From contig MU006038.1 in NCBI GenBank assembly GCA_010093745.1, positions 1 through 46,876 on the forward strand: a stretch of DNA of 46,876 nt, read 5' to 3'. The DNA is from Piedraia hortae CBS 480.64 (lineage: Eukaryota). Made by a program: the position numbers and the translations under genes. A model generated the notes under the pieces. That model was not told where the DNA came from and searched no databases. It saw only the letters and a list, made by a program, of their open reading frames with translations. Positions 27,135 to 45,838 of the stretch are shown here, piece after piece (position 1 is the stretch's first letter; every line of letters starts with the position of its first letter).

Positions 27135-29572
27135 TTTGATTTGATTTGATTTGATGTTTAACGCCGGGCGAAATGACCGCTAACGGCCATTCGCAGCCTC
27201 CCAAAGGGCATGAGGGCGTGCTAAACTAGGTCTACCTACATACGTTAGGTTCTTTAGCAAGCATCTTGAGCCTCAATGGGCTGTTATCCAGCCGCGGTCC
27301 TCCTCCGCATTGCGAGGATAGCCTGCGGCCTGTGTTTCCCATAGATGTTGCTCAGCCACGCGGACAGATTTCTCGAAAGAAACCTGTGTTGGCAACAAAC
27401 GCGGCAAAGTCTGTGGGCCTTCTGACCAGGTCGGCAAGATACTTCTTCCGCCCTTCGAAATCCAGCATCCGCCTCGGTCCATCCCAGAACCAAGGCCAGA
27501 CTCACCACTGGCGAACAACCCGCGGGCAATGCACAAAGTGCTAAGAGGCCTTTGGTCGGCCGCACCTGCAGTTGAGAACTGCGTTGTCGTGATGGAAGCG
27601 GCGATGGTATGCCGCAAAGTCTCCGTGTCCCGTTCTCAGCACCAGAAGGCGCTGAAGGATCGGGCGTCCCAGGTGGAGTTCGGCGTTCTCCCGCACCGCA
27701 TACGGGAGTCGCCAGGACTTGTAAAGGTCAGAGAGGGTCGCTTCCAGCTCCCGCCAGTGCTGTCTCTCTATGTCGTCCAGAATCTTCTTGGCCTCGGACT
27801 TGATGCCAGCGGCCGTTGGTCCAGCCTCCGGGTCCAGATCGCCCTTGCTGCCGTCCTTTGCTAGTTCGTCTGCGGTCTCGTTGCCCTGGACGTCGCAATG
27901 TCCTGGACACCACTTGATTTCGACGTCGTGCGCATCGGCAACTTGGTGAAACGCTTGAAACGCCCAGTGGAACGAGATAGAGGCATCCGCACGTAAACAC
28001 CAGATGACGGCCGTGTTGTCAACACAGATCCATATCCTTCCCTGCCCTGTCCTTTCCCGGTGTGCAACAGCCCGCTCTAGGGCGCGCCACGCACCTACTG
28101 CCTCGGCGTCAAACACGGCTGAGCAGGGGTCGATCCTCGCCTTGCCCATCCCCACGTACTGGCCGCCTTGTTGGAGGACGTAGCCATAGCCAATGTCCCA
28201 TTTGCCCGTCTGTGAACCGTCGCTGAACGCCGCGATATCTGACGAGGGTAGGGTGGAGAGCTACGACACAAAGTGTGCTGCGGCCTCTTCTTTGGACTTG
28301 CCGTTCGTAGGATCTAACCGACATCCGGCGGTGAAGCGTCGATCAAGCAGAGGGGGTCGGTCAATCTCTTGCAGTAAAAATCCTGCCCGTTGTAGTTTTG
28401 TCCTCAGCCTCAAGGTGCGGCTGCGCATTGTTTGGGTAGTGGAAGCCCTGATTGCCAGCGGGTGCTTTCCATCTACAGTTCGGATCCGTCGTGCAAAACG
28501 AAGTCGTGCATCTTCGAGCGCCATTCGTGCCGTCGGCAGCCCTGCCTCTCTGCTGAGTGCCGCTCCTGGCTCCAGCATGTAGCACCTTCTGTACTTCTTC
28601 AATGTGCCAGTCAATGCCAGCGCGGATCGTGCCCCTGCCGTTGGCTGCGGGTTTTTCCCGTCCCCCGTACTACGCCTCCACTCCATATAGAGCCGTTGGA
28701 ATTACACAGGTGACTACAGCTTTTCTCAACGCAGCAGCAGGCGGACCATAGGAACATCCGGCCAGACTACGAAGGTGGTTCGTGATTTTCCGTGCCTTCG
28801 CACACCGCTCGGTGACGTGTTTCTTGAAGCTCAGCTTGCGGTCCAAGTGAACTCCCAGCCACTTGATAGCAGGCAGGGGCCCATCCGTGGTGGGCTCGAT
28901 TGAGAATGTGTCGCTAGCTACCAGGACGCGAGCCCCTGCGTCTCTGCCTCGCGAAAAATGCATCAATTCTGCTTTTTCTGGCGCGAATTGTACTTTATTG
29001 GCTTCGCCCCATTCGAGAACGGCGCGAACATCCTCCGCCAGTGCGTCAGTAGACTCTTCAAGGTCCTTTCCTACCCTGTAAAGGCAAATGTCATCGGCAT
29101 AGCCAAATCGTAGCTGTTGGTTCTGATTCAACAGCTCCGCAAGGTATAGTAGGTAGAGGACAGGAGACAACGGGCTGCCCTGGGGGGTCCCACAGGTGAC
29201 AGCAGCTGGCGGAGTAGTCTGTTCTTCCACCCTCACTCGGGTGCTGCGTCCTGAGAGAAATGAGTTGACGAATCTCAGCAATTCGATGGGCCAACCCTGA
29301 CGCCGCATGCGATCCAGCCAACGGCGGGGCAGAAGAGCGTCAAAGGCGCCTTGGACGTCGAGAAGAGCCATGGATACGACTTGCTTTCTGGCAAACGCAA
29401 TCTCAACATCGTGCACGAAGGAGGCCACAAGGTCCATGGCCGATCTTTTGGGGAGGGCCCCGCAGTGCTGAGAGCTGATGATGCCGGTTCGAAGAGCAGC
29501 CCATGAGATTCTCCCAGCCACGAGCCGCTCCAAGCCTTTTCCGAGGCAAGATAGGAGCGCTATTGGCCTCAG
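27135..29572 (-). mobile_element. 5'-truncated Tad1-like LINE (RT, RNase H, C-terminal Cys/His motif), with stops and frameshifts
   Basis: RPIALLSCLGK, GTPQGSPLSP, GYADD and RNase H WCPGH..VQGNETAD; (TCAAA)n 3' tail; 13-bp TSD GGTCGGTCGCTGA at 27122-27134 and 29573-29585. Confidence 0.93.
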
Positions 29573-29959
29573 GGTCGGTCGCTGACTGTCCTCGGATTGC
29601 TGGGTTGGTACAGTTTGCTCTTGATGGCCCAAAATCTCAGACGTCGCCCCAGTCCCAGGTATGATAAGAGGGATATGGGCCATCAGGTACCGTTGCATGC
29701 ACGCGCTGGAACCAAGGTTCGATAACAGCTGGATCCTCGCACTTCATGGTGTTGGTGGTGAGAAGGTAGAAGGTGGAACGGTGTGGGAAAAAACTTCGGG
29801 CAGTCTTAAGAAAACGTCACCCTCTCCCACGAGCTGCCCACAGCATTCAGGGTTACGTGTTGCTCGCATAGTGTAAAAAACGATCGAGACCACAACTCGC
29901 GGGCCCTGAGGGTGGACTGGAAGGTTGGGCTTTCTCGACTGCTCAAGTATTACAGAATA

Positions 29960-31300: not shown

Positions 31301-33464
31301 CCCTCTTGCAAGCGGCATGGTGATCCGTCGCCTCCTGCCCTCGCACGCGCTTGTTTGCCTCCTTGTCGCGAGCTTTCCTCGCCTTCCTGGCCGCCTGATC
31401 CGCATTTTATGCCTGTCGCACGTCGCGCCTCACATGCGCGACCTGCTCGTTCCTCGATGTCATTGGGACATCGCTGGGTGGAATTGGTTGAAATGGGATG
31501 CTGAGGGCAATTGTTGGGGGAAAATGTCGGGCAGTTTGGAGGAAAAAACTGTTCTACCAAATTCGTGGGAAATTGCTCGTCTAGGTGCATCCATTGTTGT
31601 GTGAGTGTAGGAGTCCTCAGGGACGTGAGGGAATTTTGCTTCTTTTTGGCCTGGCAGTGCCAAGAGCGGAGGCATTGTATAATGGTGCCTCTCAGATCAA
31701 CTCGGCGGAATCGCAAATTGGGAAACCTTATAGAACCAATTAATGGAGCAGACGACTTCTCGATCTACGTTACCACATGCGTGACTCCTTCCACGAGCCT
31801 TCGACGGTGGGATATACACATGGTAGACCAACTTCGTCAAGGCAATTTGCGAGCCTTTTGCTTCAGGCTTAGGCAAAAAGGGTAAGAAATATCTCACAAA
31901 CATCGCGGTAAAGTCTAATAGCGTCCATAGGATCCGCATTAAGCAATCACAGAGCCGTGCAAGCGAAAATACAATTCACTGCGTCATGACGAGAAAGCTT
32001 ATATGACGCGTTGCATGAGACAAACACCGGTTCTCCTATGTCATTGAGACGCACGGCGAGCGAGAGCTCTGTACGATTACAGAGAGTGTTTCCGCAATCC
32101 GTCAGTCAACCCCTCCATTCGTTAATCGCGAATGAACTGGATAAAGGGCTTGTTTAGTTTGTTTGTATCATTGACGCCGAGGAGTTGTCGTCCCGAAGGA
32201 CTGCCCGGGGCCTCTCGAGGGGCATTGGGGCGTGCTATATAAGCTAGGTAAGGTATTTACGACCTTGTGACCGACCTAGCCAGCTAATTTAACTTCGAGG
32301 GGTTTTTCGAAGGAAGTCGGGTCGTGGAAATTCTCTACAAAGCGAGGAATGTCCACGGGGCTGTAGTTACCATTGTTCCTGTGCCGCACCAAACTATAAG
32401 AGTAGACGTGATGTTTCAGTACACAGCAAGCCAACGAGCCATTAGGGTCGCTCTTAACCTAAGCCATTCAGCAATGCCAATGATATTGCCTTCAACAAGC
32501 CTGTGAGTCAAGGATTCTACAAGGTTTTGTCGTTCGGTTCAGCAAGCCCAGCTCTTGATCATTTGAGGATGTTTACTAGACAAAATGGGAAGCGTCGGCG
32601 AAGGCATTCTCCTCCTGTGGCTGCACTTGCAGCTTCCAGCCAACATCTTGGGAGATTCCCCATGATTATTGTTGGTGCGTGCTCCTGAGGGCATGACAAT
32701 TACTGCGCTCTGACTGAGGACATCACTTCCTAACTGGCAGCAAGAAGAGGGTGAATGTTTTGGTTCTTCACGCCGGGCAGCTCGAGCGCAGGAAAGTGGA
32801 AGCAGCCCTACGAATATGGCTCTACAATCGTAAGGACGGTGAATATACGTCAACGATGATTCCACGAAGTCACTTCCACCACGACTTTTGCCAGTGCATT
32901 AGCACCTAGCACCTGCTTCCCATCAGTTGACGCGTCTTCAGAATGCGTGTTCGCCATGCCAGGCTGAAAACATTGGTCTTGCTGTTTGATACGATTTAGG
33001 GTGCAAGGGTTGATGTAAATGCTCTGCAATAGGTCAACCTTCGCCGGGGAAAGGGACTTTCGAAGCGGCGAGTGAATGAGATTTGAAATTGAAAGGGCCT
33101 CTCCGCTGCGACCAAGTTGGCCGGAGTCATGACGAGACTGCGTCCCACCAACGATAACGCGTAGGAGTGGCCCGTTTATCTGCTCCCAGAAAGACTGCCA
33201 GCCTTGATCGAGAGTTCCAGAAGCCGGCCCGCGGATGGAAAATACCCTCACGGTGACGGAATTCATTGAACTTCTCCATTGCACCGACCGGGTCATCGGA
33301 CAGCTGCTGTATAACCTTAAACAAAGACAGGTGCCAGTCCTGTTCCTTGCGAAAGGGAATAAGGTTAGCCATTGTAGGCGACTGCGGAACCCAGGACGAA
33401 GGCCGCGGTATGATAATCGATCATATGCTCGTTAAACCTGTACACAGCCAATCCCGCATCAGAC

Positions 33465-33780
33465 TGCCACCACCTGAAATCTAAAATCAGGGTACCATAG
33501 GGTCATGTTTTCAGGCTGTCACAGTCTGCGTTCCAGGAGACCTGAGATCAGGATGTCACAGGGCGTTGTTTTCCAGGCTGTCATGGCCTGAATCCTGTGG
33601 TATCTGCAATCAGGATGTCACAGAGTATTCTTTTCAGGCTATCACGGTCTGAAATTTGTGGGATCTTAAGGCAGATTGTGACATGTTGCTTGGCACAAGC
33701 CTGTCACTGGACAAGTTTTCAGGCTGAAATCCGACATTTATCAGATGCTCCGCATTTGAATATCACAACTGAGAAACCGG
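33465..33780. repeat. Left subterminal repeat array (about 61-bp period; TTTCAGGCTG core)
   Basis: TTT(T/C)CAGGCT units near 33508, 33570, 33631 and 33716; ATCAGGATGTCACAG occurs twice. Confidence 0.75.
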
Positions 33781-34020
33781 GGAAAGTAATCAAGTGACAA
33801 GATCGAGACTGACACAGCGTGGACCTGAACTACCTGGTTCTGAAACTACATAATAAGGGACATTTCATCAACATGTGCAAAATGAATCAAAACTGTCAAA
33901 AGCCACGCGGTGGTGGAGAAACCCTGTCACGCTTGGCCTGCCAATCAGCTATGCAAATTAAGCATATGGACATCGACCCTCCAGCGGCTAGACACGCTCT
34001 CTGCCTCGTGCTGCCATACA

Positions 34021-37000
34021 TCATTTGGGGCCATCTGCCTTTCCTTTCGATAAGCGGTGAGAACCTGCTTCACGCCACACCCCTCGCCAAACAAATGCAT
34101 CACATTGAGAATGCGAGCCCAGATCCTCTATCGGAACGATTTTGTAACCTCGTGTGGAGGCAAGCAAGGGAACTTTGACCGACGCACCAATGTCTTCGTT
34201 GGCGTTCTGGGGAGCCACAGCCCGGAACTCCTCAACTAGGGCAATCGCCGTCTGCGGTGTCTTAACCTGTTGTAGGGGCGCGTTGACGCGGAATATTGTG
34301 CTGCTTTCCCAGCATTGCACGAAGGAGCCCGCTCCACATGATATAGCTTCGAGACATCTAGAGAACTGGCGATATACTGTCCGGCTCCACCTCAGGTCAT
34401 ACGTGCTGACCAGCCTGTTGTGCGGGGCTTGGGTCGTTGCAGGAAGCTGATGGCGCAGGCGTTGGGTCTTAGGGCCGGAAATCTTAGGATATGGCAGGCC
34501 AATCATGGACCTCATCCATATCTCTTGACAAAGGTTGAGAAGTTCATCCCCTGCTCGTGTCATATATTCGTTGTCCACACACCACCAGCCTTCAAGGGCG
34601 ATGTGCTGTTCCAAGAGAAAGACCGAGAACTTGTTTATGAGATCCAAACCAGGGGCGTGGTGATTGGTGAGGTCCAGATTGCGTCGAAGGGGCTTGCTCA
34701 AACTCTCCAGCCGCTCTGTCATCCCTCCAACAGGCCCATGCCACCAGGTCCCTGCGGGCATATGGAACAAAAGCTGAATTTAGTCTTCTTCTTGATGGAA
34801 TCAAGCCCCCATATCTCTGAACAGGTCTCTACCAGCTCCCGACTCGCTTCCCCAACAGCATCGCACCATTCCTGCAGGTCGCTGATGCTAGTGGCGTAGA
34901 GCAGCGTCCTGAGCTTTCCTCCAAAGCACCAAAAATGAATCAGATTATCAATGTCCGCAAGCCCACCTTTGGCTGTAAAAAATGCGACCAGGGTCAGCGG
35001 CCAGACCTAGAGTAGGTTTCGAAAACCGCCGCCTGTGAACGACTTGTTCCAATTGGCGATTTGTCGGGTGAGGGGAATGTCGCACAACCGTCCTTTTCGG
35101 CTGAATGTGCACGAATTGCAAGCTTCCAAGAGTTTTTCCTTGATTACGGGGAGGTTAAGCGTATCCAACCACGGGTATATAATCACTCCCAGAAGGAGGG
35201 AGTGGAGCATATCATAAGTAAAATCCTGGTGTGGATCGAACCCTTTGAGTCGGTAGAGCTCCGTGAGAGGGTGCTCTATTCCAACGAGATCGGCTTCCTT
35301 CGCCGGGAGCCCCTTGGTATGCCGTAGCACCCTCAGACTGGAAACATCGATAATATCCTTCCATTGACTGACTGCTGTCCAGCGCCAGTAGTAATCATGA
35401 CAAGGCTGTCCTCCTGTCCAATGGATCGAGCAAAGCGCCGCCGCGGCAGAATTATCGGCCATGAACCGACAGACGCATCCAGAGATGAGCACAGGGCGGC
35501 CACAGCCCAAGTCGAAGGCCTGGACGCCGCGCCGGGGCCGAACCAGATCCGGCATCAGCCCACGGAGCATACTGGTGGCCTTCATCTTGGCACCAACCGC
35601 AACACAGTAGTTGGCAGAGACATGAAATCATGCTAGACCAGATCACACATTAGGTCCAGTTCTTATAATAATTTGTTCGCATTGAAAACCAAGACTCACC
35701 CTGCGTGAAAAGCCAGCCAAATTCATTGTCCGCACTTCCAGACGATTCCATCGTTTTCCTCCTGCCGCACTCATCCCGTCCTGCCAAAAGCTGACATTGA
35801 GCTGCACAACACGGGCTTCATGCTTCATGCAGAACTTCTTTGCCGGATGTGGGGGCCGCAGGAATGGACCAAAGTCCTTATGAAGCGGCGTGCCATCTTG
35901 CGGAACAAACTTGATATCTTCATTAGCCAGGGTATCCATAATTTGAGTCTCTTCGAGGAATACCACGGTCGTCTCGCTCACCTCCAATGTACCGCCCTTG
36001 GTAGGAATAGAGAACTTCGGCTTCCTTGGGTGCACCCGTTCACCGGCTCTAACAGACCAGCGAAATCGCTCGAATAAGACATGTCTTTTTTCCTATGTCT
36101 GCGGGCTAGAGCGAATTTTCAGGCCATGATACAAGGCGTATCTGGTCGAGCTGGATGGACTCATCCGCAGGACGTCTCCAAGCCAGATACTGACTGGCCT
36201 CAGATCCAGATAATCTTCATAGGTAGCTGTATACGTAGCTTCCAACGCCACTTGGTGCCATGCCACATCTCGGAACAACTTTTCGAAGCAAGCCCATCAC
36301 TCGAGGTTGCCACTTGCTCTACCACATCGGGATACTGGATAACTTCAGTAATGTTCCTACAGGTTTGCATGCGTACGATGTCGAGCACACTAATCTGATA
36401 AAATGGTGCCCCATCTTTAGTCTCGCGACGAATAACCTGAGGTTTGGGAATGATTTTACGATACTTCTTCAGTTTTCCCAATGAGGGTACTTTGAGTCTG
36501 ATTGGGATCTTTGCAAGCTCCTTCACCACTTTTAAAACGGTTTTCATTAGAGTATCACTGATAGGATGACGATGAGAATGGTACATTGCAAATAGAAGGG
36601 CATCTTCTTTGCAATCAAACGGGTTCCATGGGTTGTGAGGCAGTCTCATGTCGATGTTTTTCGGCGGAATAAAACAAGAAGAATACGGTATATCTTGGTC
36701 GATCGGTACTGAAGTTTCGACGTCTAACATCTCGTTAACTGTCGGAAACTCGCCATCTTCGTCCTCATGAGCTGACTCGCTAATATCGCTGGCATCGCTG
36801 ATGATAGTGTCGTCATCTTCAGAATCCCAGTCACTCTCGTCGTAACTGCAACTGTCTTCGTCTTCCGCCTCTTGATCTTCATCTCGCCCGTCAGCTTGGT
36901 CGTCAAAATCCATGCAAAACTCGGAAAAATCATTGTATAATGTTTGGGCGTTCATGTTCCAGGAAGGCGCCGGATTCACAGTGCTTGCAGCTTGAGTTGT

Positions 37001-37246
37001 GGCCTGTCGAGCTAGGATTTTGGGGTCCTGCGCTCGCGATTCCAGGACCAGTCTCATGCAAGCATCGGCATCTTCGGATTCTTCGAAATCCAAGGCCGCT
37101 CGGTACTCTTCCGGATCGTGTCTCAAGTTGTTCTTGTTCCTTTGATGCATTGCCGTCAAAAAGTGAACCCCTTTACTGTACGGCGTTTTTATGGTTGACT
37201 TGCCCGTCCCAATTCTATGACAGATGTGGCACCGCGTAGCAGGCAT
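34021..37246 (-). pseudogene. Decayed CMC-like transposase of the element
   Basis: N-terminal CxxC and acidic tract; PWNPF, EMWHGTKWR, FWQDGMSAAGGKRWN, FMADN, GFDPHQD...MLHSLLLG and TERLES...TNHHAPGLD; one GTGAGT intron near 35698; several premature stops and frameshifts. Confidence 0.7.
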
Positions 37247-38288
37247 CTTGAGAGGTCTGAACTGTTGTATATACGGTGATATGTTAGTCCGGTCGTTTGG
37301 ATATCGAAAAGCTTTTGAACTAGTTTTGCGGCGTTAAGCACGGAAGGTCAATGCGGCATGCAATCCTCAAATTATACCCTAGACCTTTCCCTAAGTTTAG
37401 GTACAAGGTATAGCTATTACTGAATGGAACGAAGGCGTTGTTCCACTCTCGTTAGGCGGCTACCAAGGTGTGGTATCGTATCCAATTCTCATTCTCATAG
37501 AGAAGTAACCATTCAAGAGATGGGAGTGATGGTAGGAGAGTTGTGACTATCTTAAAGTGTATTGTTAACTAGGTTGAGGAGGTGTGGTCACCTCGCGGCC
37601 TGTTCCGGCCCGACCCGCTTGAGACGTCATTCGACAATATTCAACAAGAAGGGACGATCCCTAGCGCGCCGCCAATCTGAATCTAATTCTCCGGCTTCAG
37701 CCTATTAGATAGAGCTGTCATCCTATGCCTTTAGTACACTACACCTAAACTTGCTTAGGGTCCGAGGGCAGTCTCTGTTTGATTGGCTAAAGCGAGGGAA
37801 TAGACTCAATGGCACTCCGGCGTGAAAGTACATTACTAGAGATTAGCAAACAAGGCATTCTAAGCTAAACCCTTTTAAGCATGCGGAATTGGGTCCGCGG
37901 ACCATTTTTGATCTGGAATGACCAGTGACCCCGCATCCCATTCATCCCATTGGCGGAAGCTCGCTTCCCCACATCCCAAAATAGTTTAGTTCTGGATGCC
38001 TTTTTTGCCGGTCTCTATGGTATTTAGTCGTCCGTCGCCTCACCTGCAGAGAAGACACTTCCAAGGACAAGTTCCTCAACACTACGAGGCGGTGGCCCCG
38101 GGCATGATGCTTGTCGGTGCCTCGGCCCGTTGAGACTTCCTTGTCGTATGATCGACATTATTGTAGCAGTTAGATTAGTCGCTTCATGTTTATAGTTGGC
38201 CCTCGCCAGATTGGACGGTCGTCGCGTTGTGGATATCCATCGCTGGTTCCTTTGCTCCCTCACAATAACAGACCAATACTGTCACAAG

Positions 38289-39935
38289 ATGCCCAACACA
38301 AGATCCAACGCGCGACTCGTAGGTCGAGGCGGTGCAAGAGGTCGAGGGAAAGGTCGCGGAAGGGGCAGTGCCAGGGGCAGTCGCGGAGGCAAGAGAACAT
38401 TGGTTGAAGAAGCCCAATCTGTGCCAAACCTCAAGCGCGCACGCATCACAGCCGAAAGGTATGATCAATCACCTATTACGAGCTATGTACGCCGCTAATC
38501 TGATACCGCATCTGATTAGGCCAACTGCCAATAATCACGGCTCTTATGAAGAATTTGGTTATGTTGTTGGTGAGGCTGACAATGATTACGAGGACAACGA
38601 TCAGTCTGATGATGAGGACCATGTTGATGATGAGACACGCGACGACCTCGGCCACATTGGCAATGCCAATTATGTGGATTTTGTTGAGGATATCGAGGAT
38701 GGTGCCAACATCGCTCCTTCGGTTACCCACCCGACTTCCCTACCAAAGTCCATTTCCACTGTCACCACAAGGCGGGCTGAGAGCGGTGGGCCCAGCATCT
38801 TGCGGGCACAACATCAGCGCCGGGTTACAGCTCCCTTGGGCTTATTAGCGCCTCGCGCGCCTCTCGCTGGTACCCCGGTGCCCTCAATGAGTGGCGATCC
38901 ACTTGGCATCGCTGACAGTTTGTTGCAGACGGCCCGTGTGCGCCCTTTGGCGCCGACTATGACCACTGCAGATGCAGTAAGCAGAGTCAGGGCAGCTGAT
39001 ATTAGCAGCTTCTTTCTCTTGGAGGATGTGGTTGAGGTACGTAAGCAATTCCGGGCTTGAGCGACCAAATCAGTGTAATAACTCTCCAGGCGCCGCCCAA
39101 CGTGGCCCTAGGGGTTGCGATTAAATACATCGGCGAGCTCGTCACGATGAATAAAGAAATGCATACCCAGCTCCAGGCCCTTGAAGCGCGGGTAAACGAA
39201 ATGCACGAAACGAAAGCGGCCAAGGGAGTGAGTCAAGACCTTCATTTTCAATGCAATTAGGGACAAGGCTAATTCTACCTTAGGGAATTCGCGCCGCAAT
39301 GCGGCAGCTGCTCTTCTGGGAGCACGCTGGGGGCGCGTTGTGGGGCGACAATTCCGCCATCGCGGTAAGAGCTTCAGCACGACCTTCTTTCTAGCATCAG
39401 GGTCGTTCTAATGGAATTTCTAGGCCGAGTTGCGCTCCCGGGGTGTTATGGCAAAGGCCCCTACACAGTCCGTCCTCTCCAAGATCTCGCAGATCAAATC
39501 TGATCTGCGCCAAGACCTGCGAAAGCGGTTAAGAGACGTCCATCTGCAGCCTGTCCCTCTCGCCTTCAACGTCTCCGAGGAGCAGGCGAAGGCTGCTTCG
39601 CTATGGGTAAGCTAACTTATACATGTTCCAATCCAATGCTAATCATCCTGACTTCTACGTTGCAGAAGTGGAAGGTGTCGCAATGCTCCGCCAGCCGAGC
39701 CGACTTTTGGGAGCAATGGGACCTAAGTTATCACCTTCTTTCCGCAGACGACAAGTGAGTTCTTCGCATATGAACTGCAGTCCCTGACATTATCTCTAGG
39801 AGGCTCATTTTCGAGCGAGACCTCCAGTGCCATGGATGGGAGAAGAAGGGGGACGGTGGGCGGGGTCTCCCAGGACGGCAAGGTCCTAGCCGGGCAAACC
39901 GCCTGATCAGTAATTCCTGGACCTCCGGGAAGTAG
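38289..39935 (+). CDS. Element-borne 7-exon gene, about 437 aa, unknown function (TnpA-like accessory candidate)
   Basis: Exons 38289-38458, 38520-39036, 39090-39227, 39284-39364, 39424-39606, 39666-39754 and 39800-39935; six GT..AG introns, most with a CTRAY branch site; splicing gives a continuous 1314-nt frame. Confidence 0.7.
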
Positions 39936-40009
39936 GTCGCAAGAGGACCTCGGCACAGTGTAATGTTTGTTAGATAGGCCAAAAGCCGTCAACATGATTC
40001 TGAACATGG

Positions 40010-40296
40010 CACACCTGATTTCAGCCCATTTAAGCCTGATATCAATCTGACGGAGTGCCTTGAATTAGAGAGCTACAAGCACGATATCAGGCGGAAACCA
40101 GCTAGAGGCAGGCTGCCACAGATACGATATCACATAGGAACAGACTTGATATCAGATAGGAACAGGCCTGAAGTCAGGCTAAATCTCACCTGAAATCAGA
40201 CAAATATTTCACAGATTCCAACCGATCACAGGGCTGAAACCAGCCAGATCCCAGATAGATTTTCAGTCGGTTTCAGACCGATTTCAGGCTGATTTC
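40010..40296. repeat. Right subterminal repeat array
   Basis: Clustered TTTCAG / CCTGAAATC / GATATCA motifs in both orientations, including ATTTCAGGCTG at 40281. Confidence 0.7.
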
Positions 40297-41505
40297 GTCT
40301 GATGCAGGATTGGCTGTGTACTCAACCAAGGGCAGCAGTCGCTTGGCATTCTCCGCAAAGATCGGATGCTTTGTCGCATTGTTGAAGGCCTGCTCGATGG
40401 AATAAAAGGCGGGTACGCAGTGCCTCAGCATGTAGGAGTCGGATTCGGCCATTTTGATGGCGTTGGTGGTTACCGTGAACGTTTGAATCGTGAATGATAA
40501 CTTATTACAGAACTCGGGGGAATGGGTAAGGTGCCGAACGGTTTTAAGCCCCTCTGTATCTATTGTTGCCGGTTTCGTGAAATATGCCCGCAAATACAAA
40601 CAATGCTGACTGGGCCTCGGCCACTGATCGCCACATTGCCAACTGCGTCCCCCAGCGAGTGATGACAGAAAGCACAACGCGAAGACCTTACCGTCCTCAG
40701 TTTGCTTCATGACTTCTCTGAGCCTACCGAGCTGTTAGGGCGAGTTCATCATGTTTACTGCTATTGCTTAGGCATCTAGGGTAACGACTTTGAAGAGTGG
40801 ATCGTCTCGCAGGGCATCAACAACGAGCAACGGCAAGCTGTGGGCCTGGCAACCAACAGTGATGACCCTGGGGTACACCTCTCGGATTATTCCCCATGCC
40901 TTGATACTGTAGGACACATTGTCCGTCACTGCTGAGTTGATTTCACACCCCTCGAACTCTCGGTTTAGTTTTTCTAGGAGCCAGGCGGCCACCACATAAA
41001 GGACCGTCGATTGAACAATTGCCGGGATTGAAGTCTGACTTAATATAAAACGCCCCATAGCCGGGGACGTGGGCGCACAGATTCATTATGCGGTGCTTGT
41101 TGATATCGTTTGATTCATCCATCACAGCATTGATCACGTAGCTGCAGGACTTTGCTATCGGTATGAACTTGGCTCGGTTCTCCTGGTAAGCTTCTTCCAG
41201 GAGGGGGCCCGGCCAGTCCTTGCGGTCGAGGAATCCTAACCGCCGGCTGCAGACGGCGAAGAGCCTGCGTGACAGACTTGTTCTGGTAATAGGAGAAAGG
41301 AGAGTTCGTCAGATATACCAACAACACGAGCTACTTTCGGAAACGCTCGGCCAGGTCCTTGGTTGGTGGGGGAACCTTGAGATCCTTGGGCTTGTCGTCC
41401 ACGACCTTCGTATATATATGGATTTCCTCCTAGGGGTGTAGCTGTTGCACTCATCAAGATGCCTCATCAACTTGGTGGTATTCCAAGCGTCATCTTTCCC
41501 GCAAT

Positions 41506-41701
41506 CACAGGCCACAGGTTATCCTTGCAATGCGGAGGAGGACCGCGGCTGGATAACAGCCCTTTGAGGCTCGAGATGCTTGCTAAGGAACCTAACGTAT
41601 GTAGGTAGACCTAGTTTAGCACGCCTCCATGCCCTTCGGGAGGCTGCGAATGGCCGTTAGCGGTCATTTCGCCCGGCGTAAAACATCAAATCAATCAATC
41701 A
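41506..41701 (+). mobile_element. 196-bp 5'-truncated copy of the LINE 3' UTR
   Basis: About 10 differences over about 180 nt against the reverse complement of 27150-27334; (TCAA)n tail; 14-bp TSD ATCTTTCCCGCAAT at 41492-41505 and 41702-41715. Confidence 0.93.
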
Positions 41702-43130: not shown

Positions 43131-44446
43131 GGATTGCAGTAGCTGCGAGACGTATTTCAAGTTCGCAAACGCGGTGAGTAGCCTCATGCGTTCAATCAAT
43201 GCTACAGCGAGCGAACGGGGTGGCGGTCTGTCCCATTTAATGGTTTAGGAAGAGGGATCGTGCTCCCTTCATGAACGATAAACACCATATCTTGTAGTTG
43301 TCTGAGAGCCGACTTCTATCTCGGTCAAGTTTTCATCATCTGCTGGAATAGCATTTAAATATTTTCATTCTGGTGCCGCTGTTCTCCCCGGCGTTGCTCG
43401 TCGGCCTAGCCAGTGTTGATAGATTTTCCAAGAAAAGGAAGAGTTGGAGAAGGTTAGTTTAGTGTGACGGCGTCATAGAATGATGCGCTTTGGTGATCTG
43501 CTCTGGAAGATCTTCCAGCCGTTCGGGAAAAGGGTCGTTTACCGCGTGTTTCTTTGCGGAGAGTCGGCGCGGGGGTTGTTCAATGGGTGCGTCTTGTGAC
43601 GTTTCGATGTATTTCTGTCTCCTCAAGAGGATCGATAGCGGGCGTTGCAACCACAGCGACTTCTGGAGAAACCGACTAAATCGTCCACATTTCGAGCAGC
43701 TTGTCAGCTAGACAATGGCCCGGTTGTTCAGAAAGGTCGAGTATCCCCCGGCGAATATCAAACCACGGCCGCTTCAAGTTGCCGTATGACCGTGACACCA
43801 ATCTACCCTCCCATCCCAGCATTTAGTGACCTCGAAGAAGGCCCTGTGCGAGCAGATGGACGTATTTGCCCCTGGGCACCTTGTGTTGTCCGTGTAGACC
43901 GGAAGAAATTTTTATCCGAAGAAAAGAAATTCAAGCTTGGCAAAGCCGTCAAAAAGTCCTGCCAGAAGATTCTGCAGATTCTGCCAACAGAACCTGCTAG
44001 AAGATTACACAAGAATCGCGTTGAAGTACACAAAACCGCCAAAATTACGCAAATTCTTCAACAAGTTACATGTACTGTGCATGAATGTTACGCCAAATCA
44101 CCACAAAGTACACCTCTTGCTCCGCGGATTCTGCTGTACTTTGCCCAGCAGGTTCTGCAGAATTGCCGGAATAAGAATTCTGGTCTGCTATTTAACAGCA
44201 AAACCAACCCATGGGAGCTTGACAATGAAACTAGCCAATTAACCAACGATAGAGCGGATGAAAGGGAACACATGCTGGCTTCTATTTGAGAGACGCGTCG
44301 CTTTCCCTAGCACTAGCCTAAAAGCGGTTAGATTATCTAGATTTTTCTAAAGATTACCCTAGCGTTTTAGGTGGGACGTGCATACCTAGCGATTCAAGTG
44401 GGACGCCTAATGACAATCTTTGTCGCTACCATCTGCCACGGCGAGA

Positions 44447-45838
44447 ATGTCTACCTCAAACAGCCCCAAATCCAGCAGCCCCAGCTCTGATCCAGGAACA
44501 CCCAACTCTGCCTCCATGTACGGGTTCTCCGACGAGCCTTATGACACATTTCAACCCAAAATCGCCGCACTGCTCGAGAGCATCGGGCATTTCAAAGACA
44601 TAGTCCTGGAGCACCTCCGCGGAGGCAGCTTTAACCACGTTATCATTGCGCGAGCAACAAGAATATCTACCAACGATCCCATCCAAGGAATCTTCCGTAT
44701 CCCGCGTGATGTCTTCAATGAGCCCATCGATGTCGAGATCGAAGACCAAGCAGCTGTCCTACAGATGCTAAACGCCCAAAAGAATCTGAACACGCCCAAG
44801 CTCCTAGCTTTTGATGCATCCCTCAACAACCCAATCCACTTCCCTTTCACCTTCATCGAACTCGCCCCAGGTCTCCGTCTCCATGACGTTTATCGTGGCA
44901 TGTCTCTCCCCGAGAAACTAAGCATGGTCGATGAACTAGTCAAATACCTCCTCGCCGCCGAGCGAGTCACCTTCCCTCGTCACGGCATCATCACCGCCGC
45001 CAAAGACTCTCCAGTCAAAGGCTCCATCTACGACCCGTCTGGGTTACCACCCATGCAACTCGATTTCCGCCACCTAGGCGAATTCTGCAACCTGGGCGAC
45101 CGCTCAAATCGCACAAACTCCAGTCCCGAATCATGGACTGACACGCTCTTTAACATGATCGCATCCGAGTGCAACGGCGCTGATACCTCAAGTGATTACG
45201 ATCCCATTCTGGAGATTTGGGAGAGGGTTCGTGAGGTTTTTCATCAAATGTGCGACTCAGGACACTTCTCTCTCCGCCACGAAGCTTCCCTCTCAACTGC
45301 ACCGAGTATCCTATACCACTGGGACCTCGAGCCGAGAAATATCATCGTCACACGAACGGACGAGGGGTATAGAATTGAGAAAATCATTGATTGGGATGGC
45401 GTACAGGCCGTGCCCCCCGTAATGGCACGTAGGCCGCCGATATGGCTTTGGGATACCACGGACGAGATGTGGGACTTTACGATTGGAATTGAGATGGAGT
45501 CTGTCGGTAGTGATTTTGATGGTGATGCTGATTTGCTTGATCCAAGGAGGTATAATGCTTGTAAAGGCAGGCTTTCGGATGATGAGCGACTGATACGAAC
45601 TCGGTTTGAGGAGAGGCTTGTTCAGGGACTTGGAGAGATTTATGAGGGGTATAATATGAGGGATTATATGGAGGAGGCATATGGGAATGGAAGGTGGATT
45701 CGTCGCATGACGAGGATTGTTGTAAATGGGATTCATTCGGATTGGGAGGAGAAGAGGTTGGAGCATCTTATTGAGAATCGGGGTGCGTTTATGAAGAGGT
45801 CGCAAAGCGGTGCGGAAAGTGAAGTGAGCAGGGGATAA
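44447..45838 (+). CDS. APH / protein-kinase-like phosphotransferase
   Basis: GGSFNHV, IFRIPR, HWDLEPRNII and IIDWD; intact ORF from ATG at 44447. Confidence 0.85.
   Translation: MSTSNSPKSSSPSSDPGTPNSASMYGFSDEPYDTFQPKIAALLESIGHFKDIVLEHLRGGSFNHVIIARATRISTNDPIQGIFRIPRDVFNEPIDVEIEDQAAVLQMLNAQKNLNTPKLLAFDASLNNPIHFPFTFIELAPGLRLHDVYRGMSLPEKLSMVDELVKYLLAAERVTFPRHGIITAAKDSPVKGSIYDPSGLPPMQLDFRHLGEFCNLGDRSNRTNSSPESWTDTLFNMIASECNGADTSSDYDPILEIWERVREVFHQMCDSGHFSLRHEASLSTAPSILYHWDLEPRNIIVTRTDEGYRIEKIIDWDGVQAVPPVMARRPPIWLWDTTDEMWDFTIGIEMESVGSDFDGDADLLDPRRYNACKGRLSDDERLIRTRFEERLVQGLGEIYEGYNMRDYMEEAYGNGRWIRRMTRIVVNGIHSDWEEKRLEHLIENRGAFMKRSQSGAESEVSRG

What the first reader, a model, noticed from the sequence alone, without database searches (positions are those of the whole stretch)
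38289..39935. Hidden intact 7-exon passenger gene beside a dead transposase
Seen: six introns of 45-61 nt join fragments that the ORF track shows separately into one open 437-aa frame. It has an RGG/GRG-rich basic N-terminus with an NLS-like KRAR, an acidic tract, a coiled coil (MNKEMHTQLQALEARVNEM) and a helical Trp-rich C-terminus. The transposase in the same element has multiple stops and frameshifts. Inference: the asymmetric decay suggests purifying selection on a TnpA-like regulator, an anti-silencing factor or a domesticated gene.
Basis: partly seen in the sequence, partly recalled or inferred. Interest (0 to 1): 0.75.

Follow-up and report, generated by a model that had tools for sequence, protein, structure and literature searches.

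The report
Spliced second gene of a transposon
The seven-exon gene is real and spliced, but it is the ordinary, already annotated second gene of a many-copy cut-and-paste transposon, and its intact frame beside a broken transposase is what chance would often give.

Summary
Exons 38289-38458, 38520-39036, 39090-39227, 39284-39364, 39424-39606, 39666-39754 and 39800-39935 give one open 437-aa frame with six GT..AG introns of 45-61 nt. Contigs of run X2 skip five of the six introns exactly; none of the DNA run X1 does.

The gene is not hidden. It is identical to an annotated hypothetical protein of Piedraia hortae.

It is not a lone passenger either. It lies head to head with a Plavaka/EnSpm-like transposase inside a 6876-bp element (33443-40318) with CACAG..CTGTG ends, 22-nt inverted repeats, a TA target duplication and repeat-rich subtermini. 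The family is highly repeated, with at least five annotated paralogs at 82-87% identity.

The evidence does not show selection on this copy:
- Copies diverge about as much in this gene as in non-coding DNA.
- Some copies carry frameshifts.
- The window copy has lost 13 residues of the conserved C-terminal domain in frame.
- A neutral model leaves the frame open in roughly 13-44% of cases.

A 28%-identical relative in the same genome shows long-term constraint on the C-terminal domain. No relative was found outside this species, and there is no Pfam, PDB or fold assignment.

Best reading: a lineage-specific accessory protein of the transposon, working like TnpA. That function is inferred, not shown.

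The parts
33441..33442 (.). Left copy of the TA target-site duplication
   Evidence: TA sits directly outside CACAG. Contigs of other copies run on unlike the window before 33441: 8 in X1 and 3 in X2 (table 7). Removing the element and one TA in silico restores the flanking minus-strand frame.
33443..33464 (+). Left terminal inverted repeat, CACAGCCAATCCCGCATCAGAC
   Evidence: the repeat finder pair I1. The end-to-end alignment shows 21 of 22 identical to the right end.
33465..33800 (.). Left subterminal repeat region, including a unit of about 61 bp repeated at 33486-33666
   Evidence: 5 of the window's 16 SCTGAAAH matches lie here. Self-blastn finds offset matches. See also the k-mer counts.
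33945..37246 (-). Transposase gene of Plavaka/EnSpm-like type, degraded in this copy. ATG at 37246-37244. Predicted intron 35633-35699. Intron at about 34774-34832.
   Evidence: The Atlas feature search puts piece 35007-35627 next to Plavaka (PF18759) clusters at score 0.95 with 177 shared features. LNVSFWQDG fits the first half of Transposase_21 motif I as quoted in PMC1636069. Lesions: one-base length differences from other copies at 35624/5 and 34118-20 (table 4); in-frame TAGs at 36093-95 and 35007-09; a frame change between 36200 and 36296.
37247..38288 (.). Intergenic region between the two divergently oriented genes, presumed to be a bidirectional promoter
   Evidence: This follows from the geometry. 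X2 depth is lowest here at 24-99, against 213-1930 over the genes (table 2). The tool warns that contig depth cannot rank genes.
38289..38458 (+). Exon 1: RGG/GRG-rich basic N-terminus and KRAR
   Evidence: The joint over 38459-38519 appears in X2 only.
38520..39036 (+). Exon 2: acidic tract and Pro/Ser-rich linker. Lacks 21 nt after 38703 that an X2 contig and all four annotated paralogs carry.
   Evidence: table 4.
39090..39227 (+). Exon 3: start of the long helix (MNKEMHTQLQALEARVNEM)
   Evidence: Donor 39036 is used in an X2 contig with a variant acceptor.
39284..39364 (+). Exon 4: start of the conserved C-terminal domain
   Evidence: Joints 39227>39284 and 39364>39424 appear in X2. Aligns to P0006.
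39424..39606 (+). Exon 5: conserved domain, with a derived 39-nt in-frame deletion at about 39539-39542
   Evidence: Other DNA and RNA contigs carry 34-35 extra letters here (table 5c). P0003, P0004 and the distant P0006 keep the segment.
39666..39754 (+). Exon 6
   Evidence: Joints 39606>39666 and 39754>39800 appear in X2.
39800..39935 (+). Exon 7 and the TAG stop
39960..40296 (.). Right subterminal repeat region
   Evidence: 4 of the 16 SCTGAAAH matches lie here. Tandem units of 22 and 11 nt.
40297..40318 (-). Right terminal inverted repeat, ending ..CTGTG on the + strand
40319..40320 (.). Right copy of the TA target-site duplication

Best explanation
The gene is the second, accessory gene of an autonomous cut-and-paste DNA transposon of 6876 bp, with CACAG..CTGTG ends and a TA duplication. 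The element belongs to, or lies near, the EnSpm/CACTA-Plavaka-ESTA ('CMCT') group.

Shown:
- The gene sits inside the inverted repeats, head to head with the transposase.
- It recurs in many diverged copies of the element in this genome.
- The family is transcribed and spliced at the predicted junctions.
- Its C-terminal helical domain (about residues 274-413) is shared at 28% identity with a second, divergent, also repeated family in the same genome. The protein type has therefore been kept by selection over a long time, as expected for a gene the transposon needs.

Inferred (about 40-50%):
- The protein enters the nucleus through its basic N-terminus and KRAR.
- It pairs through the long helix.
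- It binds the repeated subterminal motifs of its own element through the Trp-rich helical domain.
- It thereby assembles or regulates the transposition complex, as TnpA does for En/Spm or the Myb-like protein does for Harbinger.

The copy in this window is a decaying insertion. Its frame stays open by chance, helped by its short length, and it has lost 13 residues of the conserved domain. It is probably not under selection and may be impaired.
For: - Element anatomy: inverted repeats; copy boundary at 33441 (table 7); TA on both sides and the flanking frame restored on in-silico excision; subterminal motif clustering, 9 of 16 window matches in 1.5% of the window.
- Transposase type: Atlas score 0.95 to Plavaka clusters, with Transposase_21 further down the list. 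CA..TG termini and 2-5 bp duplications are the group's traits, and TA duplications define ESTA, according to passages of PMC12730594.
- Multi-copy: 5 paralogs at 82-87% identity; 512 X1 and 127 X2 contig pieces laid on the element.
- Splicing: 5 of 6 introns are skipped exactly in X2 and never in X1.
- Deep conservation: P0001 against P0006 gives 28% identity over 158 residues, pairwise E 2e-13, and profile E 3.5e-5 against 1.84 billion proteins.
- Precedent: passages of PMC1636069 say that the second proteins of CACTA-like elements of animals and fungi are not detectably conserved and are presumed TnpA analogues.
- Decay of this copy: 21-nt and 39-nt in-frame losses.
- Neutral expectation.
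Against: - There is no sequence or fold link to any DNA-binding protein or to TnpA. Pfam gave nothing even at E up to 10. A PDB profile search gave only a low-complexity match at E 0.65. Both AlphaFold models are unreliable, with mean pLDDT 39.5 and 38.5.
- The transposase has no Pfam match either. Its family rests on a language-model similarity and partial motifs. I could not locate the C(2)C and H(3-4)H motifs.
- I could not read the DNA around the paralogs, so 'always beside the transposase' is untested.
- Among the 13 listed coding sites where the other copies differ from the window, 6 are synonymous against 29% expected. That hints at omega near 0.5 rather than 1. The sample is small, not significant, and confined to the N-terminus.
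- The subterminal motif was chosen from those same regions, so its enrichment is partly circular.
Confidence: 0.72

Rival explanations
1. Captured host gene fragment. The transposon picked up a cellular gene, or part of one, which now rides along without any role in transposition.
For: No similarity to any known transposon protein. A distant relative, P0006/P0007, exists elsewhere in the same genome and could be the donor.
Against: No homolog was found in any other organism among 1.84 billion representatives or in the word-indexed 5.8 billion, which is unusual for a host gene. P0006 and P0007 are themselves two 93%-identical partial copies on one contig, so they look repeated too. The gene has its own intron set, its own start and a divergent promoter geometry inside the element.
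Confidence: 0.12
2. Anti-silencing or regulatory cargo. The protein protects the element from host silencing or activates its promoter, rather than binding the ends for transposition.
For: Fungal transposons of this group repeatedly carry extra genes thought to counter silencing, such as TET/JBP (passages of PMC12730594). TnpA itself reactivates a methylated promoter (passage of PMC1636069). The RGG-rich and acidic tracts fit a chromatin or RNA-binding factor.
Against: No enzymatic or known chromatin domain was found. Nothing here tests it. The differences between copies are mostly transitions, in both directions (table 1), but I did not test whether repeat-induced point mutation acts on this family.
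Confidence: 0.1
3. One reading: this particular copy is domesticated or kept by purifying selection while its transposase decays.
For: The frame is open across 437 codons beside a transposase with about 3-5 lesions. 6 of the 13 listed coding differences are synonymous.
Against: - It is multi-copy and other copies carry frameshifts.
- Identity is flat along the protein.
- Coding divergence is about equal to non-coding divergence (table 8).
- It has a 13-residue loss in the conserved domain.
- P(no stop) under neutrality is 0.29-0.44.
- No orthologs were found.
Confidence: 0.05

Closest known systems
TnpA of maize En/Spm (CACTA)
   Same: A non-transposase protein encoded inside a CA..TG-ended element that has many subterminal repeats. 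PMC1636069 (passages) describes it as essential for transposition and as a regulator of the element's promoter.
   Different: No sequence similarity. TnpA comes from the same transcription unit as TnpD by alternative splicing, whereas here the two genes are divergent. En/Spm makes 3-bp duplications; this element makes TA.
SmTRC-PrA and the other second proteins of animal and fungal CACTA-like elements (PMC1636069)
   Same: Lineage-restricted, fast-evolving second proteins with no detectable homologs elsewhere, presumed to be TnpA analogues (passages).
   Different: Those arise by alternative splicing of one unit. No sequence relation was tested, because I held no reference sequence.
ESTA and Plavaka elements of the CMCT clade (PMC12730594)
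   Same: TA duplication (ESTA); 2-bp duplication (PlavakaA, and B in part); CA..TG ends typical of the clade; extra genes beside the transposase (passages). The Atlas places the transposase piece nearest to Plavaka clusters.
   Different: The termini CACAG..CTGTG differ from the quoted Plavaka termini (TGT..ACA and CATCA..TGATG). In the passages I read, ESTA and Plavaka families come from Basidiomycota, and the word Dothideomycetes does not occur in that paper. Pfam's Plavaka model does not match. The cargo here is not a TET/JBP enzyme.
Myb/SANT DNA-binding protein of PIF/Harbinger (Nuwa) elements
   Same: A two-gene cut-and-paste element: a transposase plus a separate DNA-binding partner (passage of PMC12730594). 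This protein also has a helical, Trp-rich domain.
   Different: No Myb/SANT match was found for this protein. The transposase superfamily is different.

Membership tests
CMCT clade of DNA transposons (EnSpm/CACTA, Mirage, Chapaev, Transib, Plavaka, ESTA), for the element | 5'-CA..TG-3' termini (as quoted from PMC12730594) | tested here: met
   CACAG at 33443 and CTGTG ending at 40318; 21 of 22 terminal bases match.
CMCT clade of DNA transposons, for the element | Target-site duplication of 2-5 bp | tested here: met
   TA on both sides. The copy boundary lies at 33441 (table 7). The flanking frame is restored on in-silico excision. This rests on one insertion only.
CMCT clade of DNA transposons, for the element | DDE transposase recognisably similar to EnSpm or Plavaka transposases | tested here: inconclusive
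   Pfam gave no match for any piece, even at E up to 10. A word-indexed search among longer proteins gave none. The Atlas feature score is 0.95 with 177 shared features to Plavaka clusters. LNVSFWQDG fits the first half of Transposase_21 motif I as quoted in PMC1636069; the second half deviates.
CMCT clade of DNA transposons, for the element | [quoted passage not shown] | tested here: inconclusive
   Read by eye in piece 35007-35627. The sequence is CHDY where C(2)C might be expected, and I saw no clear H(3-4)H. No alignment to reference transposases was possible.
ESTA (EnSpm-like elements with TA duplications) | TA target-site duplication | tested here: met
ESTA (EnSpm-like elements with TA duplications) | Transposase groups with ESTA transposases in a phylogeny | not tested
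Plavaka A/B | Termini TGT..ACA (A) or CATCA..TGATG (B) | tested here: not met
   The termini are CACAG..CTGTG.
En/Spm TnpA family, for the 437-aa protein | Sequence similarity to plant TnpA-type proteins (the Pfam family name and number are recalled, not taken from a call) | tested here: not met
   P0001 and all seven exon translations match no Pfam family at all.
En/Spm TnpA family, for the 437-aa protein | Binds the repeated subterminal motifs of its own element | not testable with these tools
   Candidate motifs exist. Binding itself needs a bench test.
Domesticated transposon gene | Single copy, detached from a mobile element | tested here: not met
   At least 5 annotated paralogs. The gene lies inside intact inverted repeats. 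Hundreds of contig pieces match it.
Domesticated transposon gene | Orthologs in other species | tested here: not met
   Only proteins of the same species were returned: 2 hits and 7 hits.
Domesticated transposon gene | dN/dS well below 1 on the copy's own branch | tested here: inconclusive
Rough proxies: 6 synonymous against 7 non-synonymous among 13 listed sites; coding and non-coding divergence about equal (table 8); flat identity profile.

The most novel reading that the evidence does not exclude
The protein founds a new, so far species-restricted family of TnpA-like cofactors. The family has at least two deeply diverged subfamilies, the P0001 type and the P0006/P0007 type. It serves a previously undescribed TA-duplicating, CACAG-ended CMCT transposon lineage in Dothideomycetes. 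That lineage has recently amplified, and is still transcribed, in the smallest genome of its class.
Probability: 0.4. Interest if true: 0.4.

Novelty: new member of a known kind. Interest (0 to 1): 0.3.

Why it matters
The main value is as a correction. An open frame beside a broken transposase is not in itself a sign of domestication. The gene is shorter than the transposase, the family is multi-copy, and neutral drift explains the asymmetry.

Two smaller points follow:
- The window holds a complete, well-bounded two-gene element of the EnSpm/Plavaka/ESTA group from an ascomycete class. I found no such element described for that class in the passages I read.
- The element carries an orphan accessory protein whose conserved C-terminal domain could be tested for binding to the element's subterminal repeats.

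Tried and rejected
- Whole genome: none is held for this window. Copy context, full copy number and codon-level dN/dS could therefore not be computed.
- Pfam on all seven exons, on P0001 and on the transposase pieces: nothing above noise.
- A read-through Pfam query across the transposase breaks was rejected because the translation held stop codons.
- Transposase piece against longer proteins: no hit.
- AlphaFold2 of P0001 and of P0003, each with the 6-sequence alignment: mean pLDDT 39.5 and 38.5. This is too poor for a fold search, so none was run.
- PDB sequence-profile search: only an RGG-type match at E 0.65.
- Atlas search on the C-terminal half: the nearest clusters are unnamed Basidiomycota proteins (0.92-0.93), then DUF6698 (0.88) and DUF6532 (0.84). 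These are leads only.
- Homodimer prediction for residues 215-429 of P0003: no answer.
- Sequencing runs: no listed holder is on record as RNA. X2 is only guessed to be RNA. I read it as containing RNA because it alone holds the intron-less joints.
- Earlier findings of this scan: nothing was returned for place, sequence or words.
- Literature: 'K470DRAFT' occurs in no paper of the library.
- Alternative introns to explain the transposase breaks at 36093-36296 and 35007-09 were examined by eye. No canonical short intron resolves the first. A 54-nt GTTTTC..ACAG candidate could hide the second TAG, but its donor is poor.
- Tc1/mariner, which also makes TA duplications, was considered and dropped because the transposase is long and Plavaka/EnSpm-like.

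Full report
**1. The observation**

From ATG 38289, I combined the six consensus donors (38459, 39037, 39228, 39365, 39607, 39755) with every AG lying 40-99 nt downstream. The longest open frame uses acceptors 38519, 39089, 39283, 39423, 39665 and 39799. That gives:
- seven exons and 1314 nt including the stop;
- 437 aa;
- introns of 61, 53, 56, 59, 59 and 45 nt, all GT..AG, with fungal-type branch motifs.

The window is fungal. Exon 2 alone retrieves a 437-aa NCBI protein, P0001, at 100% identity: hypothetical protein K470DRAFT_260723 of Piedraia hortae CBS 480.64, on a contig of 46876 bases. A script confirmed that my spliced translation equals P0001 letter for letter. The gene is therefore real as a model, but it is not hidden. 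The public annotation already holds exactly this model.

**2. Splicing evidence**

Two coded runs hold the stretch: X1 (DNA?) and X2 (guessed RNA). I laid both on 33300-40500 at 80% likeness or more.
- X2 contigs skip 38459-38519, 39228-39283, 39365-39423, 39607-39665 and 39755-39799 with GT..AG ends.
- No X1 contig shows any of these joints.
- For intron 2, the rows shown give only a variant: donor 39036, 60 skipped, 10 other letters. Eight joint rows were not shown.

I take this as direct support for five of the six junctions, and as evidence that X2 contains spliced RNA. At this likeness the contigs can come from any copy of the family. Expression of this particular copy is not shown.

**3. 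Surroundings: a complete two-gene transposon**

- *Ends.* repeat finder pairs 33440-33481 with 40280-40321. Aligned from the ends, 21 of the first 22 bases agree: CACAGCCAATCC(C/T)GCATCAGAC, at 33443-33464 and 40297-40318.
- *Target duplication.* TA lies just outside both ends. Contigs of other copies run on unlike the window before 33441: 8 in X1 and 3 in X2 (table 7). That fixes the family's left boundary.
- *Excision test.* Removing the element and one TA in silico lets a flanking minus-strand frame read through the junction...LLPLVE|YRFNEHMIDYHTAAF.... One contig in each run joins 33405 to 40382, so uninterrupted versions of the flank exist (table 5).
- *Subterminal repeats.* Both subterminal regions are full of short repeats. 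9 of the window's 16 SCTGAAAH matches fall in these two regions of about 360 bp. I picked the motif from those same regions, so the enrichment is partly circular. Tandem units of 22 and 11 nt lie on the right, and a unit of about 61 bp repeats on the left.

**4. The transposase**

It lies on the minus strand, from ATG 37246 down to about 33945, head to head with the passenger gene.

*Family.*
- Pfam matches none of its pieces, and a word-indexed search among longer proteins found nothing.
- The Atlas feature search places piece 35007-35627 next to Plavaka (PF18759) clusters at 0.95 with 177 shared features. Twenty-one of 30 hits belong to that set, and a Transposase_21 cluster appears lower down.
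- LNVSFWQDG fits the first half of Transposase_21 motif I as quoted in PMC1636069 (passages).
[quoted passage not shown] They also say that ESTA is defined by TA duplications, and that Plavaka A and B end in TGT..ACA or CATCA..TGATG.
- This element fits the clade's terminal features and ESTA's duplication, but not the Plavaka termini. I could not verify the C(2)C and H(3-4)H motifs.
- I therefore file it as a CMCT-type element of unresolved lineage.

*Is it dead?* Partly.
- Two of the apparent breaks look like introns. One is 35633-35699 (GTGAGT..CTAAT..TAG, predicted). The other is about 34774-34832, where an approximate X2 joint exists.
- Most other copies differ from the window by one base in length at 35624/5, just after the first intron, and at 34118-20. 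In both places the other copies' length gives a continuous frame and the window's does not (table 4).
- In-frame TAGs at 36093-95 and 35007-09, and a frame change between 36200 and 36296, are not resolved by any canonical short intron.
- That makes about 3-5 lesions in about 3.2 kb.

**5. The family**

- Four more annotated proteins of the same species, P0002-P0005, are 82-87% identical to P0001. Their gene models drop different exon parts, as expected if the annotation steered round defects.
- 512 contig pieces of X1 and 127 of X2 lie on the element, spread from 99% or more to under 90% likeness (table 1). Some carry frameshifts in this gene: one base more at 38361 and one base less at 39118 (table 4). 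Some are internally deleted (table 5).
- P0005's N-terminal extension matches the translated region upstream of the window's ATG. That copy therefore shares the upstream DNA too.
- I could not read the DNA round the paralogs, so strict co-occurrence with the transposase remains untested.

**6. Selection**

Several rough measures agree that nothing marks this copy as selected.
- *(a) Identity profile.* Pairwise amino-acid identity among the five paralogs is nearly flat: 0.80 (1-57), 0.84 (58-230), 0.84 (231-273), 0.87 (274-415) and 0.75 (416-437).
- *(b) Coding against non-coding divergence.* In the 16 contig pieces listed out of 680, divergence from the window is 7-12% over this gene, 9-12% over the transposase, and 10-11% over subterminal and intergenic DNA (table 8). 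That implies an omega near 0.9.
- *(c) Listed coding sites.* Of the 13 coding sites among the 40 best-supported differences (1209 more were not shown), 6 are synonymous and 7 are not, against 29% synonymous expected. That is omega near 0.5. The sample is small, not significant, and confined to the N-terminus. I report it as the one hint the other way.
- *(d) Neutral simulation.* P0001 has 13 private residues in the 271 columns where all five proteins are present. P0002, P0004 and P0005 have 11, 18 and 11; P0003 has none. A neutral simulation on the real codons at the matching 2-3% divergence leaves the frame without a stop in 29-44% of 3000 runs.
- *(e) Lesion density.* Scaling the transposase's lesion density to 1.3 kb predicts 1.2-2.1 lesions, so P(0) is about 0.13-0.29.
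- *(f) In-frame losses.* The window copy lacks 21 nt at 38703 and 39 nt at about 39539-42 that other DNA and RNA contigs carry (tables 4 and 5c). The second loss removes 13 residues that P0003, P0004 and even the distant P0006 keep. These residues lie in a predicted helix of the conserved domain (low confidence). The frame is intact, but the protein is probably not.

**7. Deep conservation**

- A profile of the five paralogs, run against 1.84 billion representatives, found only the family itself and P0006 (E 3.5e-5).
- A profile that included P0006, run against the word-indexed 5.8 billion, added only P0007.
- Both come from the same species and the same 407-kb contig. They are 93% identical over 75 residues.
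- P0001 and P0006 share 28% identity over residues 274-413, pairwise E 2e-13.
- P0007 shows the same layout: a basic N-terminus, a Pro-rich linker and a helix.

A second, old branch of the same protein type therefore exists and is also repeated. Long-term constraint on the C-terminal domain, together with near-neutral drift among young copies, is the usual signature of a gene that serves the transposon.

**8. Function**

No Pfam, PDB or fold assignment was obtained. The mechanism is inferred from anatomy:
- the basic RGG tract with KRAR suggests nuclear import and nucleic-acid contact;
- there is an acidic tract;
- the long helix suggests pairing;
- the conserved Trp-rich helical domain suggests recognition of the subterminal repeats.

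This is how TnpA works for En/Spm and how the Myb-like protein works for Harbinger elements. PMC1636069 makes the same inference for the unconserved second proteins of CACTA-like elements in animals and fungi. I put this at 40-50%. Captured host fragment gets about 12%, anti-silencing cargo about 10%, and domestication of this copy about 5%.

**9. Verdict**

This is an ordinary, already annotated accessory gene of a multi-copy CMCT-type transposon, and it represents a new, species-restricted protein family. The genome paper (PMC7082219, passages) reports this species as the smallest genome of its class at 16.95 Mb. That makes a high-copy, transcribed DNA transposon there mildly notable.

Papers, and what I saw of each:
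- PMC12730594, PMC1636069 and PMC7082219: passages only.
- All other titles: search listings only.
- Supplements of PMC12730594, which hold the reference sequences, were not seen.

Noticed in passing
window 32850-33440 and 40321-41518, minus strand: The element sits inside another repeated sequence, whose minus-strand frame is restored when the element and one TA are removed. One DNA contig and one X2 contig join 33405 to 40382, which are uninterrupted copies. There is a weak DUF659 match (E 0.016, below cut-off) at 40768-41082, so it may be hAT-like.
   Followed up: partly
proteins P0006 and P0007 (same species, one 407-kb contig): A second, deeply diverged family with the same layout and the same C-terminal domain: 28% identity to P0001, and the two are 93% identical to each other. 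It may be the accessory gene of a related element. Its DNA context could not be read.
   Followed up: partly
window 33583-33828, 34550-35418 and 37802-38238: Contigs with internal deletions of the element, of 244, 867 and 435 nt. Two of the three appear in both the DNA and the X2 run. They suggest non-autonomous derivatives of the family.
   Followed up: no
window 28673-29743, minus strand: An open frame with a reverse-transcriptase domain (RVT_1, E 1.1e-23). The right third of the window is a nest of mobile elements.
   Followed up: no
window 1-27000: Ordinary housekeeping genes by Pfam: lysophospholipase, Exo70, a FYVE/Rabenosyn protein, an RNA methyltransferase, biotin synthase-like radical SAM, septin, a CN hydrolase and a Myb protein.
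   Followed up: no
window 44414-45835, plus strand: A 474-aa open frame with a weak match to the phosphotransferase (APH) family, E 9e-7. Its function was not examined.
   Followed up: no
window 33486-33666: A unit of about 61 bp repeated in the left subterminal region (72% identity between offset copies). No equivalent array of that period occurs on the right end.
   Followed up: partly
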